From: Promethearchaeota archaeon | Lineage (GTDB): Archaea; Asgardarchaeota; Lokiarchaeia; Sigyniarchaeales; SOKP01 | Assembly: GCA_019058245.1 (NCBI GenBank) | Contig: JAHPZJ010000008.1 | Span: forward strand, 1 to 64,000 | Reading direction: 5' to 3' | Length of the DNA stretch: 64,000 nt | Shown here: in pieces, positions 1 through 9,054 of the stretch | How positions within the stretch are numbered: position 1 is the first letter of the stretch | Layout: every line of letters begins with the position of its first letter | Notes under the pieces: model-generated | Told to the model about the DNA's origin: nothing | What the model saw: the letters and a program-made list of their open reading frames with translations, nothing else | Databases searched by the model: none | Program-made: the position numbers and the translations under genes

Positions 1-167
1 GCATCCCAAAAATCTGAGATCTGATTCACAGACCATCTATAAAGATCTTTTCCACCTTTAAGGTTTAAGTTATAATTCTTATTAACAAATTCAATAAAAT
101 GGGTTACTTCTGCATTCTTAATCCATTTATCAGAGGGTTCCCATAGTTTTTTTCTATTTCCACTCAT
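1..167 (-). CDS. Acetoacetate--CoA ligase (acetoacetyl-CoA synthetase), N-terminal part; runs off window start
   Basis: Manual translation MSGNRKKLWEPSDKWIKNAEVTHFIEFVNKNYNLNLKGGKDLYRWSVNQISDFWDA matches the LWxPS...DLYxWSV...DFW N-terminus of this family; alternative in-frame ATG at 176. Confidence 0.75.
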   Translation of the reverse strand, partial: MSGNRKKLWEPSDKWIKNAEVTHFIEFVNKNYNLNLKGGKDLYRWSVNQISDFWD

Positions 168-448
168 AATTTTCATTTTTTATAAATCTATTAAGAGTTA
201 TTAAAATTAAATTTAGAAATTTTAGTATGTAACAAGATAATACTATCATATAATAATCATTATGTTGAGAGTCGCACTTTTAGAACTATGATAATCTTAA
301 ATAAATCCTTAATAAATTACTATAAAATAATATACAGTAGAACAAGTTTAAAAAAAATAAGTCACATACTGGAGAAAGAATAGTAAAAAAATAAATTAAA
401 GAGATAATACTTCTAATTAACAAGATTTTTATATTAAATAAGAATAAT

Positions 449-649
449 TTGGTGCTGATTATAGAAGAAAAAGATGAAAAAAAATCTCAAAAAAAAGAGT
501 ATACAAGTGAAGAACTTAACAATATAATGATTGAAAGCATGATGGCTAAAGTAATTGAACCTGGTTGTTGTGAGGCAAGATATAACAGATTACAAAGAGA
601 ATCTGAAAAAATTTTAAAGAAGAGAAATAAAACTGAGAAAACTCCATAA
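449..649 (+). CDS. Small hypothetical protein (PGCC motif)
   Basis: 66-aa charged ORF; start uncertain (TTG 449, GTG 452, or ATA 461 behind GGTG). Confidence 0.55.
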   Translation: MVLIIEEKDEKKSQKKEYTSEELNNIMIESMMAKVIEPGCCEARYNRLQRESEKILKKRNKTEKTP

Positions 650-4296: not shown

Positions 4297-4755
4297 TTGG
4301 ATTCAAATTTGAAGGAACTTTACGAGTTAGGTTTTGTTTTCCGTGGATTTGTTCTTGTCAATCATATCTTAAAAAAATTACCTGTGCAAAAAGAAAAAGG
4401 TGTAAATAAGGATCTTAGAGGTGCTTTCATCTCTGCTATTAATACATTTGCTGATACCGCTTTTAATAATAACTCCTTAGAATATCTAGAATCAGGAAAT
4501 ATATTATTTATTTTCAAGATATCAGAAGTCCAATCAGAAGATAATTTTATGAAAGAACCAATAATTTTATATGGATTAGTTGATAAATCCAAGAAGAAAT
4601 CTGATAAACTTGTAAAAAAATTTTTCGAACGTGTAGATCCTATGATACAATTATTTATCCAAAAATATAATTTAAAGGATTTTACTGAATTGAATCAATT
4701 TGAGACATTTAAAGACGTAATGGAAGATTTCTTTATAAAAAAGCCTCAAATATAA
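4297..4755 (+). CDS. Stand-alone longin-like domain protein
   Basis: beta-beta-alpha-beta-beta-beta-alpha pattern; DLRGAFISAINTFA helix typical of Asgard longin domains. Confidence 0.6.
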   Translation: MDSNLKELYELGFVFRGFVLVNHILKKLPVQKEKGVNKDLRGAFISAINTFADTAFNNNSLEYLESGNILFIFKISEVQSEDNFMKEPIILYGLVDKSKKKSDKLVKKFFERVDPMIQLFIQKYNLKDFTELNQFETFKDVMEDFFIKKPQI

Positions 4756-6429
4756 TTATTCGCCCAAACACCAGCCTTTCGGTTTGACACGAGAATATTG
4801 AATTTTACCCTGATCTTTTAATAAAGAAATTTCTTTTTCAATTTGAATATTAGAGAAACCTTTTGCTTTAATATCATTAACCAATTGGGCTTTTGTTGCC
4901 ACAACTTTTTGTTCCTTTAGATATGCTAGAATAACTTCCTCTAAAGATTCACTAACAACGGCTTTTTCTTTAGAAATTGGTTTTTTAGTTTCACTTTCAA
5001 GAGCAGCTCGTAATTTCTCTTTTTTAAGTTCAACGGGTTTTTCAATAACTAATGGTTGTACTTTAGGTTTTGATTTTTCCTCAATTAAAACTTCTGCTTT
5101 AACTTCTTCAGGCATCTCCTTTGAGATTTCTTCTTCAGGTAAACTCCATATAGGATAAGAAACTTTTTCATAAATAACTGATTTTTGTGTTTTAAGAAGT
5201 GCAAATTCATCCAAGATTTCATCCTCAGAATACCCTAAATCTTCTAAGTCTTTCATTAAATCTTTTAAATAACCTTTATCTTGTAAAATAGTATAGATAT
5301 GCTCTCTTAAATTAGAAGGGATGTCCTTGATCTTTGCTATTTCTGTAATTAAATCTCCTTTTTCGGTTTCTTGAATTTCAGGGACTTTAATTTCTTGAGG
5401 AATATCCAGTGATTCTTTCTGGCCCCATTCAAAATCTGTAACATTTCGAATTGTACGATCATATCCTCCAAATATAATCTGTTTTAAATTTTGCTGTTCT
5501 TCTATACGGTAACACACTTTTTTAATCGATGTTGAGACTTTAGTCTTCCATTTCAGCTCAAAATCCTGAGAATTCAAAGAAGGATTATGAAAGATTTTTA
5601 AAGATCCATCGGCGCATCCAACAACAATTTCTTTTGCATTATCACCATCAATATCTTCAATCAATAATGAAAGAGGACGTCCTTCATCTGTTTGAATCTC
5701 TTTAATCAGTTCTCCCTCACTACTTAGAATCTTTATATGTGGCTCATCTGTACTTATGATAATTTCATTGAATCCATCATTTGTAACATCTCCAACTTTA
5801 ATATCATTAACTTGAGAATTAAAATTTCTTTGCCAAATAATATCTGGCTTATTGTTTTGAAATTGAACCAATTGAACTAAACCATTTTTTGTGCCAACTA
5901 ATAACCCATTAATAGGATCTTCAATATCTGGTATTTTTAAAAAACTTAAAGTGCAAGTAGTAACCCAAGAATCATAATAAAGTACATACTTAGGTTCTAT
6001 AGCCTTTATATTATCAAATATTCTAAGTGTTTTATCTTCACTTCCAAAAATTAGTTCAATATTTCCATCTCGAGTGAAATCTCCCGCGGTACAACAGTTT
6101 ATCCTCTTAGAGGCTTTATATCGCATTAATCCGATAAATTTCTTGGTTTCTAGATTTATTTTTAAAACCATAAAATTTCCATCACCAGCCCCAACTAATA
6201 TTTCGTCACATCCATCTCCATCAACATCAATTGGATATGTACACCTACACCATCCATCAAAAGTTCTATCATCAACGATATTTATTGTTTCATCCATTAA
6301 ATAAAGAGTTTTATCATGTCCACCAAAAGCTAAGAATTGCGTACCATTTTTGCATTTTAAAATTGAACAAGTCAGTATCGCATCCGGACATTCAAACATC
6401 CAATTTAATTGATAACGTTTTCGTATCAT
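4756..6429 (-). CDS. FG-GAP/WD-type beta-propeller protein with charged linker and probable C-terminal winged helix
   Basis: Repeats DVDGDGCDEILVG, GDFTRDGNIELIFGSED, GDVTNDGFNEIII, DIDGDNAKEIVVG, FGGxDxT; no signal peptide; C-terminal helices plus GKIQYSRVKPKGW wing. Confidence 0.75.
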   Translation of the reverse strand: MIRKRYQLNWMFECPDAILTCSILKCKNGTQFLAFGGHDKTLYLMDETINIVDDRTFDGWCRCTYPIDVDGDGCDEILVGAGDGNFMVLKINLETKKFIGLMRYKASKRINCCTAGDFTRDGNIELIFGSEDKTLRIFDNIKAIEPKYVLYYDSWVTTCTLSFLKIPDIEDPINGLLVGTKNGLVQLVQFQNNKPDIIWQRNFNSQVNDIKVGDVTNDGFNEIIISTDEPHIKILSSEGELIKEIQTDEGRPLSLLIEDIDGDNAKEIVVGCADGSLKIFHNPSLNSQDFELKWKTKVSTSIKKVCYRIEEQQNLKQIIFGGYDRTIRNVTDFEWGQKESLDIPQEIKVPEIQETEKGDLITEIAKIKDIPSNLREHIYTILQDKGYLKDLMKDLEDLGYSEDEILDEFALLKTQKSVIYEKVSYPIWSLPEEEISKEMPEEVKAEVLIEEKSKPKVQPLVIEKPVELKKEKLRAALESETKKPISKEKAVVSESLEEVILAYLKEQKVVATKAQLVNDIKAKGFSNIQIEKEISLLKDQGKIQYSRVKPKGWCLGE

Positions 6430-6580
6430 TTTTTCTCAAGATTATTTATGATTATAGAAAATAATAACAGTAGATAAAATAAATTTCATTCTTTATTCAT
6501 TTAAAACTTATTATCCTAAGTTTATTAAGCTATTAGTGCAATATAAAAAAAAATAAAAAAATAAAAAATATTTTTTAAAT

Positions 6581-8734
6581 TTAAAGTGCTAATTGAGCAT
6601 CAGATGGACTATATGCTCCAGTACCAGTTATTTCATATGTGATTTCCAAACTTTCTCCTGCTTCTAAAACTTCAATATCCCATTTCAATGTATCTTGTCC
6701 AACTTCGTCTGTGATTTCAGGGGTTGTTGAATAATTCCCATATTCAAATGAATCGGGAACTTTATCAAGTAAAACAAGTTTAGTTAATTTAGATTCACCA
6801 ATGTTTTCAACTGTTAATATAATTCTGTAATTTCCAAGATCTCCAAATGCTTGTACTTCCTTTCCAATTCTGAATTTCCGTCTGATGTGCATTGCCTCAA
6901 TTACAGGAACTTCAGGTTTAAACTCCAATTCTTGACTTACTGGAAAAGTGTTAGCAAGATATGTAATTTCAGATTCAAAAGTAGATTCACGGGCAGGATT
7001 TACACAATGAATAGGATATTCAAATTCCATAGTAGATTCTGGCATAAACATACCAGAACTACTATCTTTTAAGTCTTTAAGATCAATATTGAATACATTG
7101 TTATCAACACTGACAGCAGCAGCCGATACTTCAATTTCTTCTCCATCCCATGTTAATTTTATCTCATCAGCTTTAGGTGGTTGATACTCATCAGAGAACT
7201 TTTCTTGTATAACTGAAACCTCGTTCAAAGGTGCTGAACCATTATTAACAATCTTAAGTGTAGCCATAACATCTTTAGTTCTAAAAGTAGGAACTTCTAT
7301 TATATCATATGACATTACACCAGTGATACTACCAATTTCTAAAATAACATCTGAAAGAACAGCTGTTCCATTTACAATAGTTTGAAAATCAGGCATTACT
7401 CTAAATTCTAATTTCTTCCTGAATGTAGGATATTCCTCACTCTCATATTCCCATTTTCTTGAGTGCCATTGAGCTCCGCTTGGTAAAAGAGGTACATCAT
7501 TTGGATCAATATCTACAAATTTATTTGATTCATCTTCAGGAGCATATACATCAGCATTGAATAATTGAATAATAAATTCTGAAGAATTATCAAATACAAG
7601 TTTGCAGTCAAACATACCTGGTTCTTCGTCTCTTTCAACTGTATCAACATAAAATTTATTTCTTGTATATGCATCAAATTTCCCAATATCTAAACCTTCA
7701 GCAAAAGAAGACGCACTCTGGTAGGTCATTTCTATTGTTCCTGTTCTTCTTTTAGTAATGTCTGTAACCGTAATGTTACATGTAAATTTCAACATCACTG
7801 TATACTCCGGAGCTAACTTATCAATTGTCCAAACTATTTGATTTCCTTCAATATTAGCTCTTCCTTCAGTTGTATCTAAAATTCGGGGATTTGTGAAATC
7901 ACTTGGAATATTTTTTACTACTTTAATATTAGAAACTGGTTTATCAAACATACTTCTAAGAGCAATAGCAAAATGAACAACATTTTCTTTATCTATAGAG
8001 ATTCCGAAAGATTCCATACTTGATTCAGCAAGAGTTCCACCATCTCCCCACGTTTCACCCTCATTCTCCTCCTCATTCTCCTCCTCATCCTCGTCTTCTT
8101 TAACTTTAGGCTCTTTTTTGTTGGATTTACCAGAAACTCCACTTTTCTTATCCTTTAATTTTAATAATTCTTTTTCAATATCATTTATATTTAAAACATC
8201 ATCAGCGTTTGGATTAGTATTGATAAATTCCTTAACAAGAAATAAGTTTTTTATATCCTTTTTGATTTTAAAGTTCCTTGAATCAACATTTTCAGGATCT
8301 TCGGTGCCCAATTCTCTTATTGAAATGTCTTTTGATTTTAAATCAGTGCTTCCAATATTTTCAAGTGAAACGTCAATGTCCCATAATCTATCTACTTTAC
8401 TTGGATTTTCTATATTAAATTTTCCGCTATGAGTAAAAGATTCAACATTTGCATCATGATCTTGTTTTACATCTACTTCTTCTATTATTTTCACTAATGC
8501 TAATAATCCTTCTCTATTGCCATCTTTTAAAACAATACTTCCCTCGAGTTCCCCTGTATCCTTATCGTATGTCTCTATGACAGGAGTCGATGTATCTCGA
8601 TCCAGTAGTTCAACACGACCTGTATCCATGTCCTTTCTTTTTAATGCATCTGCAATAAGTTCTTCATCAGCCTCAGTTTTATCAAAGCCCATTTGCGATC
8701 TTGATTCAGGCTTTTTCTTATCTTTTCTAGCCAT
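6581..8734 (-). CDS. Cytoplasmic multi-Ig beta-sandwich protein with putative mu-homology (adaptin-mu/delta-COP/muniscin-like) domain
   Basis: 717 aa, beta-strand rich, acidic insert, no signal peptide or TM; GGTGA SD 11 nt before ATG; motif order resembles the MHD. The CDS is secure, the function is tentative. Confidence 0.55.
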   Translation of the reverse strand: MARKDKKKPESRSQMGFDKTEADEELIADALKRKDMDTGRVELLDRDTSTPVIETYDKDTGELEGSIVLKDGNREGLLALVKIIEEVDVKQDHDANVESFTHSGKFNIENPSKVDRLWDIDVSLENIGSTDLKSKDISIRELGTEDPENVDSRNFKIKKDIKNLFLVKEFINTNPNADDVLNINDIEKELLKLKDKKSGVSGKSNKKEPKVKEDEDEEENEEENEGETWGDGGTLAESSMESFGISIDKENVVHFAIALRSMFDKPVSNIKVVKNIPSDFTNPRILDTTEGRANIEGNQIVWTIDKLAPEYTVMLKFTCNITVTDITKRRTGTIEMTYQSASSFAEGLDIGKFDAYTRNKFYVDTVERDEEPGMFDCKLVFDNSSEFIIQLFNADVYAPEDESNKFVDIDPNDVPLLPSGAQWHSRKWEYESEEYPTFRKKLEFRVMPDFQTIVNGTAVLSDVILEIGSITGVMSYDIIEVPTFRTKDVMATLKIVNNGSAPLNEVSVIQEKFSDEYQPPKADEIKLTWDGEEIEVSAAAVSVDNNVFNIDLKDLKDSSSGMFMPESTMEFEYPIHCVNPARESTFESEITYLANTFPVSQELEFKPEVPVIEAMHIRRKFRIGKEVQAFGDLGNYRIILTVENIGESKLTKLVLLDKVPDSFEYGNYSTTPEITDEVGQDTLKWDIEVLEAGESLEITYEITGTGAYSPSDAQLAL

Positions 8735-8904: not shown

Positions 8905-9054
8905 TCATAATTTTTTAAATGAAAGATTATAAGTATTAGGGTCTCCAAATTTATGATTACACATAGGACATTTAATTGTAAGAGCTCTTTTTTTTATATC
9001 CAACTTAAAGCTAAAACCACAAACAGGACAAACTATTATATCACTTTTTTTCAT
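8905..9054 (-). CDS. Small zinc-ribbon protein (49 aa, not in ORF track)
   Basis: Manual translation MKKSDIIVCPVCGFSFKLDIKKRALTIKCPMCNHKFGDPNTYNLSFKKL; two CPxC motifs. Confidence 0.75.
   Translation of the reverse strand: MKKSDIIVCPVCGFSFKLDIKKRALTIKCPMCNHKFGDPNTYNLSFKKL

What the first reader, a model, noticed from the sequence alone, without database searches (positions are those of the whole stretch)
6581..8734. 717-aa protein with an apparent mu-homology domain but no N-terminal longin
Three segments occur in MHD order: ALVKIIEEVDVKQDHDANVESFTHSGKFNI (cf. the first strands of delta-COP/AP-mu), VHFAIALRSMFDKPVSNIKVVKNIPSDFTNPRILDTTEGRANIEGNQIVWTIDKLAPEYTVMLKF (cf. mu subdomain B) and TIEMTYQSASSFAEGLDI (cf. 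the mu/muniscin PxxVxFxS..SGxxI strand). An acidic loop is inserted and about three further Ig-like sandwiches follow. There is no signal peptide or anchor, so an S-layer or adhesin role is unlikely. The resemblance is judged by eye.
Basis: inference. Interest (0 to 1): 0.78.

Follow-up and report, generated by a model that had tools for sequence, protein, structure and literature searches.

The report
Asgard mu-homology-domain scaffold protein
This Lokiarchaeial gene encodes a soluble protein predicted to have the whole "mu-homology" fold that eukaryotic vesicle adaptors use to grip cargo, without the usual N-terminal longin; its family is already published as an Asgard candidate relative of those adaptors.

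Summary

- **Sequence:** residues 75-462, scanned alone, pass Pfam PF00928's own threshold (32.2 vs 31.6 bits).
- **Architecture:** a 74-residue non-longin N-terminus, then the MHD with an acidic loop and an extra beta insert, then two CnaA/DUF11 ("CLIPPER") Ig domains. There is no signal peptide or membrane segment.
- **Cargo site:** the Asp of the mu2 tyrosine-motif pocket is not conserved.
- **Link to DUF11:** MHD subdomain B is also an internal DUF11-type repeat (hhalign 97.9%).
- **Neighbours:** the gene is followed by a BBS7/ITFG2-like propeller gene in 20 of 20 orthologous loci. The adjacent gene encodes a true longin fold, but it persists in genera where the pair was not found.
- **Paralogues:** one of two sits inside a chemotaxis operon.

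Direct orthologues are listed as Adap_comp_sub candidates in Eme et al. 2023, and this scan has already reported the locus in many other genomes. Verdict: real, correctly read, already known.

The parts
6581..8734 (-). Whole gene: 717-aa cytoplasmic MHD plus Ig-domain protein (P0001); GGTGA Shine-Dalgarno-like motif 7 nt before the ATG
8513..8734 (-). Residues 1-74: Lys-rich, partly disordered N-terminal extension; not a longin
   Evidence: pLDDT 36-84 with a short helix and four short strands; no Pfam family
8147..8512 (-). Residues 75-196: first half of MHD subdomain A; holds E85, G104, N110, R116, W118 and D119, all conserved across the family
   Evidence: VIA ranges start at 74-77; column counts; weak HMMER alignment to mu2 strands beta1-beta2
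8006..8146 (-). Residues 197-243: acidic disordered loop inserted in the MHD (16 D/E in 47)
7694..8005 (-). Residues 244-347: MHD subdomain B; matches both PF00928 and DUF11; holds K274, W302, G332 and Y338
   Evidence: scanned alone: PF00928 E 2.5e-6 (27.5 bits) and DUF11 E 1.6e-4 (22.4 bits); hhalign against residues 616-717 gives 97.9%, E 6e-13
7349..7693 (-). Residues 348-462: return to subdomain A, with an extra beta insert of about 85 residues (about 358-447; N383 invariant)
   Evidence: VIA ranges end at 461-464; strands listed; invariant columns
6890..7348 (-). Residues 463-615: one CnaA-type (pilin-like) Ig domain
6584..6889 (-). Residues 616-717: DUF11/CLIPPER Ig domain
   Evidence: PF01345 E 1.7e-10 for the whole protein, best stretch 639-703; 27.3 bits when scanned alone
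4756..6429 (-). Downstream gene on the same strand: 557-aa FG-GAP propeller like BBS7/BBS2/ITFG2, with a helical and winged-helix tail (P0002); fixed partner gene
   Evidence: PF23743 E 5.3e-22; adjacent in 20 of 20 orthologous loci; found only in the genera that hold the P0001 orthologue
4297..4755 (+). Convergent gene for a 148-152-aa longin-fold protein (P0273); fixed neighbour but not dependent on the pair
8905..9054 (-). Unannotated 49-aa zinc-ribbon ORF (CPxC, 16 residues, CPMC) directly upstream on the same strand
   Evidence: conserved at the same place in about 18 orthologous loci

Best explanation
P0001 is a soluble cytoplasmic scaffold. Its residues 75-462 form a mu-homology domain homologous to those of AP mu subunits, delta-COP and muniscins, and two CnaA/DUF11-type Ig domains follow. 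It lacks the fused longin of true mu subunits, and it lacks the conserved Asp of the tyrosine-motif pocket. Its most likely mode of action is therefore that of delta-COP or muniscin MHDs: a protein-protein docking platform that binds short motifs or partner domains, not a YxxPhi cargo reader. Shown here: the fold, the sequence match to PF00928, the domain order, the absence of export signals, and the fixed adjacency to the propeller gene. Inferred: that it binds the BBS7/ITFG2-like propeller protein encoded downstream and acts with it as a two-protein unit. Any role at membranes or in trafficking is speculation.
For: - **Sequence:** PF00928 at 32.2 bits for residues 75-462 scanned alone; 33-34 bits in orthologues; 22 of 57 family members hit it. 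A canonical 32-repeat DUF11 protein does not hit PF00928.
- **Location:** no membrane-like segment.
- **Cargo pocket:** the HMMER alignment puts mu2 D176 at column K82, which is K/E/R/I in the family, and the mu2 K341/K343/K345 patch is not conserved.
- **Propeller neighbour:** directly downstream in 20 of 20 loci. Propeller orthologues were found only in genera g1, g4, g5 and g6, which hold the P0001 orthologue, and in none of the six g2 and g3 genomes, which lack it.
- **Distribution:** family found in 126 of 151 genomes of the phylum.
Against: - Sequence similarity to PF00928 covers only profile positions 123-241 (subdomain B and the next strand). The first half of the domain is supported by structure prediction only.
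- The profile search against PDB sequences is weak (mu2 E 0.63).
- The same stretch also matches DUF11, so part of the signal could reflect a shared Ig-type ancestry.
- An oligo-T tract follows the stop codon, so the propeller gene may be transcribed separately.
- P0001-like proteins in two other families of the phylum have no adjacent propeller.
- No binding test could be run.
Confidence: 0.72

Rival explanations
1. The protein is a string of prokaryotic CnaA/DUF11 (CLIPPER) Ig domains that only converges on an MHD-like arrangement. On this reading it is not a true homologue of eukaryotic MHDs.
Confidence: 0.13
2. It is a split mu subunit: the neighbouring free longin supplies in trans the N-terminal longin of a mu-like subunit, and the two act as one adaptor medium chain.
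Against: The longin orthologue is present in 25 of 25 genomes of the family. These include genera g2 and g3 and genome G144, where neither the P0001 orthologue nor the propeller was found. It is transcribed convergently. VAMP7, synbindin and sedlin longins match as well as or better than mu or sigma.
Confidence: 0.1
3. It is a secreted or surface-layer adhesin, like most proteins that carry DUF11/CLIPPER domains.
For: DUF11 domains typically form the stalks of fibrillar adhesins (10.1101/2025.04.25.650565). Pilin domains are the best matches for residues 465-616.
Against: The N-terminus is hydrophilic and Lys-rich, and there is no membrane-like stretch. The neighbours are cytoplasmic-type proteins. 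A paralogue lies inside a chemotaxis operon.
Confidence: 0.03

Closest known systems
Asgard Adap_comp_sub (PF00928) candidates of Eme et al. 2023 (PMC10307638, Supplementary section 4.3.1 and Table S3)
   Same: Same orthogroup. The table lists Lokiarchaeales entries (for example Bin_204 and AMARA_7) that share long near-identical stretches with P0001, and the paper states that the domain is not fused to Clat_adaptor_s.
   Different: The parts of the paper read here (the passages, Supplementary section 4.3.1 and part 1 of Table S3) report Pfam hits only and call the distribution sparse. Added here: the whole-domain fold match, detection in 126 of 151 genomes with a family profile, the DUF11 nature of subdomain B, and the propeller pairing.
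Mu-homology domains of AP-1 to AP-4 mu subunits (PDB 5wrk, 4mdr, 4ikn, 1w63)
   Different: No fused longin; the Asp of the tyrosine pocket (mu2 D176) is replaced; the basic lipid-binding patch is not conserved; an acidic loop and an insert of about 85 residues are added; two extra Ig domains follow.
Delta-COP and muniscin MHDs (PDB 4o8q, 5fjw, 5awt, 3g9h)
   Different: In eukaryotes these are fused to a longin (delta-COP) or to F-BAR or other modules; here the domain is fused to CnaA/DUF11 Ig domains.
DUF11 / CLIPPER domain (PF01345; PDB 9ifr; 10.1101/2025.04.25.650565)
   Different: CLIPPER proteins are exported adhesin stalks, often with a Lys-Asn isopeptide bond. This protein has no export signal, and the bond-forming triad was not established.

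Membership tests
Mu-homology domain (Pfam PF00928 Adap_comp_sub) | Sequence match at or above the family's gathering score | tested here: met
   32.2 bits against a 31.6-bit cut-off for residues 75-462 scanned alone; 33-34 bits in orthologues. The full-length scan misses it. The match covers profile positions 123-241 only.
Mu-homology domain (Pfam PF00928 Adap_comp_sub) | Complete fold: subdomain A split by an inserted subdomain B, about 250 residues | tested here: met
Mu-homology domain (Pfam PF00928 Adap_comp_sub) | Sequence similarity of the first half (profile positions 1-122) | tested here: inconclusive
   Only a weak HMMER alignment to mu2 172-203 (domain E about 300). E85 and G104 sit at the positions of the mu E and G.
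AP-complex medium (mu) subunit | N-terminal longin (Clat_adaptor_s) fused to the MHD | tested here: not met
   Only 74 residues precede the MHD, with no longin pattern and no Pfam hit.
AP-complex medium (mu) subunit | YxxPhi pocket residue (mu2 D176; also F174, K203, W421, R423, from my own knowledge of Owen and Evans 1998) | tested here: not met
   The D176 column is K82 in P0001 and K/E/R/I across the family. This rests on a weak sequence alignment. W421 and R423 could not be mapped without model coordinates.
AP-complex medium (mu) subunit | Partner large subunits (Adaptin_N trunks) and a sigma subunit in the same genome | tested here: inconclusive
   Only generic HEAT-type hits to PF01602, which also appear in non-Asgard control genomes. 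One sub-threshold PF01217 hit. The genome is 76% complete.
DUF11 / CLIPPER adhesin-stalk proteins | PF01345 match | tested here: met
   E 1.7e-10; residues 616-717 give 27.3 bits and subdomain B gives 22.4 bits when scanned alone.
DUF11 / CLIPPER adhesin-stalk proteins | Signal peptide or anchor; cell-surface location | tested here: not met
   Hydrophilic N-terminus and maximum hydropathy 1.38. This is a sequence reading only.
DUF11 / CLIPPER adhesin-stalk proteins | Lys-Asp-Asn isopeptide triad | not tested
   K625 and D657 are spaced as in CLIPPER (32 residues against 33), but no conserved Asn was seen near the domain end.

The most novel reading that the evidence does not exclude
The eukaryotic mu-homology domain was built in Asgard archaea from prokaryotic CnaA/DUF11 (CLIPPER) Ig repeats, and this family is the surviving intermediate. 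Its subdomain B still scores as both DUF11 and PF00928, and it is a clear internal repeat of the C-terminal DUF11 domain. If so, this nearly universal Asgard family, and not a mu subunit, is the ancestral context of the MHD.
Probability: 0.3. Interest if true: 0.6.

Novelty: already known. Interest (0 to 1): 0.45.

Why it matters
The MHD is the cargo- and partner-binding module of clathrin adaptors, COPI and endocytic pioneer proteins, and its origin bears on how eukaryotic trafficking arose. This report confirms at whole-domain level what was published only as a sub-domain Pfam hit. It shows the family to be common across the phylum rather than sparse. It also gives two testable leads: a fixed MHD-propeller gene pair, and a sequence bridge from DUF11/CLIPPER repeats to MHD subdomain B. 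None of this shows vesicle trafficking in the archaeon.

Tried and rejected

- Complex prediction (MHD 25-470, propeller 1-350 and the longin) was not available, so binding was not tested.
- The 'atlas' library of fold search was not installed.
- The protein-atlas search was busy for the MHD region.

**Searches that found little or nothing**
- The profile search against PDB sequences gave only E about 0.6 for mu2.
- A six-frame PF00928 search of the window's own genome found nothing, and it found nothing in the control genomes either, so it is uninformative.
- Full-text searches pairing Asgard with 'mu homology domain', 'u homology', 'Adap_comp_sub' or 'PF00928' found no paper. Only the supplement of Eme et al. 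2023 holds the information.

**Ideas weakened or rejected**
- The split-mu idea is weakened, because the longin persists where the pair was not found.
- A four-part locus that includes the Arf-type GTPase at 10707-12059 is rejected: that gene is upstream in only 5 of the 18 orthologous loci with a full upstream flank and is absent from L001 and L002.
- The surface-adhesin reading is rejected for lack of any export signal.

Full report
**Observation**

The window has low G+C (about 28%). It holds one ORF at 6581..8734 on the minus strand: 717 codons, an ATG start, and a GGTGA motif 7 nt upstream. A 47-residue loop with 16 Asp/Glu (197-243) separates the first two, and the model shows it as disordered. 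The N-terminus is Lys-rich and hydrophilic. The most hydrophobic 19-residue window scores 1.38, so I see no signal peptide or membrane segment.

**Organism and family**

The closest database proteins (67-92% identity) are all from Promethearchaeota/Lokiarchaeia metagenome bins. An exhaustive search gave 349 cluster representatives; the conserved core corresponds to residues about 240-717. Named distant members are again Asgard, with one labelled Bathyarchaeota. A profile of 57 diverse members (A1) finds the family in 126 of 151 sampled genomes of the phylum and in 46 of 52 genera.

**Is it a mu-homology domain?**

*By sequence*
- The full-length protein hits only DUF11, PF01345.
- Close orthologues hit PF00928 (Adap_comp_sub) at E about 1e-8 and 33-34 bits, over residues about 250-365 against profile positions 123-240.
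- Of the 57 family members, 22 hit PF00928 (best E 1.9e-10), and one hits muHD, PF10291.
- The window's own residues 75-462, scanned alone, give E 9.2e-8 and 32.2 bits, above the 31.6-bit curated cut-off.
- A protein with 32 canonical DUF11 repeats gives no PF00928 hit at E 10, so the signal is not a generic property of DUF11.

*By structure*
- An AlphaFold2 model built on A1 has mean pLDDT 85.4 and pTM 0.70.
- Foldseek ranks long multi-Ig proteins first, but with TM below 0.25. The mu2 MHD chains superpose with a target-normalised TM of 0.58-0.66.
- VIA-align on Foldseek's candidates puts MHDs in all 50 top rows:

|---|---|---|---|
| mu2 (5wrk), model 75..462 against mu2 169..435 | 19.3 | 225 / 245 | 3.6 A |
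| mu4 | 17.9 | 209 / 245 | 2.8 A |
| mu3A | 17.3 | 218 / 249 | 3.5 A |
| delta-COP | 16.8 | 212 / 242 | 3.0 A |
| SGIP1 | 15.5 | 214 / 266 | 3.6 A |

- Because 85-92% of each target aligns in sequence order from its first to its last residue, both halves of subdomain A and the inserted subdomain B must be present. I could not inspect coordinates, so the strand-level topology is inferred from this coverage.

**Architecture**

| Residues | Element | Evidence |
|---|---|---|
| 1-74 | Short, partly disordered extension; not a longin | |
| 75-196 | Subdomain A, first half | |
| 197-243 | Acidic disordered loop | |
| 244-347 | Subdomain B | |
| 348-462 | Return to subdomain A, with an extra beta insert of about 85 residues | |
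| 616-717 | DUF11/CLIPPER domain | |

**What kind of MHD?**

HMMER's alignment to mu2 places the nearly invariant E85 on the Glu of the mu 'DViE' strand. It places mu2 D176, the Asp that binds the tyrosine of YxxPhi signals (my own knowledge of Owen and Evans 1998), on column 82. That column is K in P0001 and K/E/R/I across the family. The basic mu2 patch K341/K343/K345 is not conserved either. That alignment is weak, so this is a provisional 'not met'. The domain therefore looks more like delta-COP or muniscin MHDs, which dock partner motifs.

**Link to DUF11/CLIPPER**

- The same stretch of subdomain B scores with both PF00928 (27.5 bits) and DUF11 (22.4 bits). In several orthologues it is the best DUF11 stretch of the whole protein.
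- Profile-profile comparison of column slices of A1 gives subdomain B against residues 616-717 at 97.9% (E 6e-13), B against 463-615 at 93%, and 463-615 against 616-717 at 96%. The first half of subdomain A matches none of them.
- DUF11 was recently renamed CLIPPER and shown to be a CnaA-like domain of adhesin stalks that often carries an isopeptide bond (10.1101/2025.04.25.650565).
- So this family bridges CLIPPER repeats and MHD subdomain B at sequence level. Whether that reflects the origin of the MHD is open; I give it as the novel case.

**Neighbourhood**

- *Propeller.* The gene directly downstream on the same strand (4756-6429) encodes an FG-GAP propeller that matches the BBS7, BBS2 and ITFG2 propeller families, plus a helical and winged-helix tail. 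This type is already catalogued as an Asgard signature protein (10.64898/2026.10.28.762692).
- *Gene order.* tblastn over 22 orthologous loci shows glycerate kinase, then the MHD gene, then the propeller gene, with the longin gene convergent. This order holds in all 20 loci with enough DNA. A 49-aa zinc-ribbon ORF lies just upstream of the MHD gene in about 18 of them.
- *Arf-type GTPase.* The gene at 10707-12059 is a variable neighbour, present in 5 of the 18 loci with a full upstream flank.
- *Co-occurrence across the phylum sample.* Propeller orthologues occur only in one family, in genera g1, g4, g5 and g6. Where the contigs allow, they lie directly beside the MHD orthologue; genera g2 and g3 lack both. 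The longin orthologue is in 25 of 25 genomes of that family, including those without the pair. This weakens the idea that it is a mu longin supplied in trans.
- *Limits of the pairing.* P0001-like proteins in two other families have no adjacent propeller. An oligo-T run follows the MHD stop codon, so co-transcription is not assured. The complex predictor was unavailable.

**Paralogues**

The genome holds two further family members. One lies between cheA and a cheW/cheC fusion gene inside a chemotaxis operon. That position is kept in two other assemblies at about 44% identity. This subfamily retains the family's signature residues. So the family seems to serve as an adaptor in more than one cytoplasmic system.

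**What is known**

Eme et al. 2023 report Adap_comp_sub hits in most Asgard lineages, not fused to Clat_adaptor_s. Their Table S3 lists direct orthologues of P0001. Earlier reports of this scan reached the same reading on many other genomes. I reached Eme et al. and the fold result before reading them, and I tested their claim about the longin myself.

**Verdict**

The core finding is already known. The added value is the whole-domain fold evidence, the wide distribution, the CLIPPER bridge and the test of the gene pair.

Noticed in passing
G000 contig C27:20593-22542 (L006:7916-9943, + strand): A 675-aa paralogue of the MHD family sits inside a chemotaxis operon. The order is cheW, cheY, cheA, the paralogue, a 280-aa unknown gene, a cheW/cheC fusion, a gelsolin-like gene, then cheB. 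The same position is kept in L008 and L009 at about 44% identity. The subfamily keeps the family's signature residues.
   Followed up: partly
window 8905-9054 (-): A 49-aa zinc-ribbon ORF (CPVC, 16 residues, CPMC) lies between the glycerate kinase gene and the MHD gene. It is conserved at the same place in about 18 orthologous loci, and no gene is called there in L001.
   Followed up: partly
window 6540-6578 (-): A long oligo-T tract directly after the MHD stop codon, followed by A/T-rich TATA-like sequence before the propeller gene. This may be an archaeal terminator plus the propeller gene's own promoter.
   Followed up: no
window 10707-12059 (+): A 450-aa protein with an Arf-family G domain at residues 125-259 (E 8.7e-21), an uncharacterised N-terminal domain of about 120 residues, and a long C-terminal tail. 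It is divergent from the glycerate kinase gene and is present upstream in only 5 of the 18 orthologous loci with a full upstream flank.
   Followed up: partly
P0001 residues 110, 274, 383, 644 (window about 8403-8405, 7911-7913, 7584-7586, 6801-6803): N110, K274, N383 and N644 are invariant in all 57 diverse family members. K625 and D657 are spaced like the Lys and catalytic Asp of CLIPPER isopeptide domains. Whether any intramolecular cross-link forms is unknown.
   Followed up: no
P0001, whole protein against residues 75-462: hmmscan of the full-length protein reports no PF00928 hit even at E 10, yet the excised MHD region passes the gathering score. Full-length scans therefore under-detect this family.
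   Followed up: yes
P0255 (1322 aa) and three members of alignment A1: Some distant family members carry extra modules. P0255 combines the MHD/DUF11 core with a NACHT NTPase. Three members of A1 have HEAT repeats (PF13646, best E 3.1e-15).
   Followed up: no
G000 contig C22:70852-72615 (L007:8050-10161): A third paralogue (703 aa) with no informative neighbours: a UvrD helicase, a CxxCxxCC protein, and PEMT and DJ-1 genes.
   Followed up: partly
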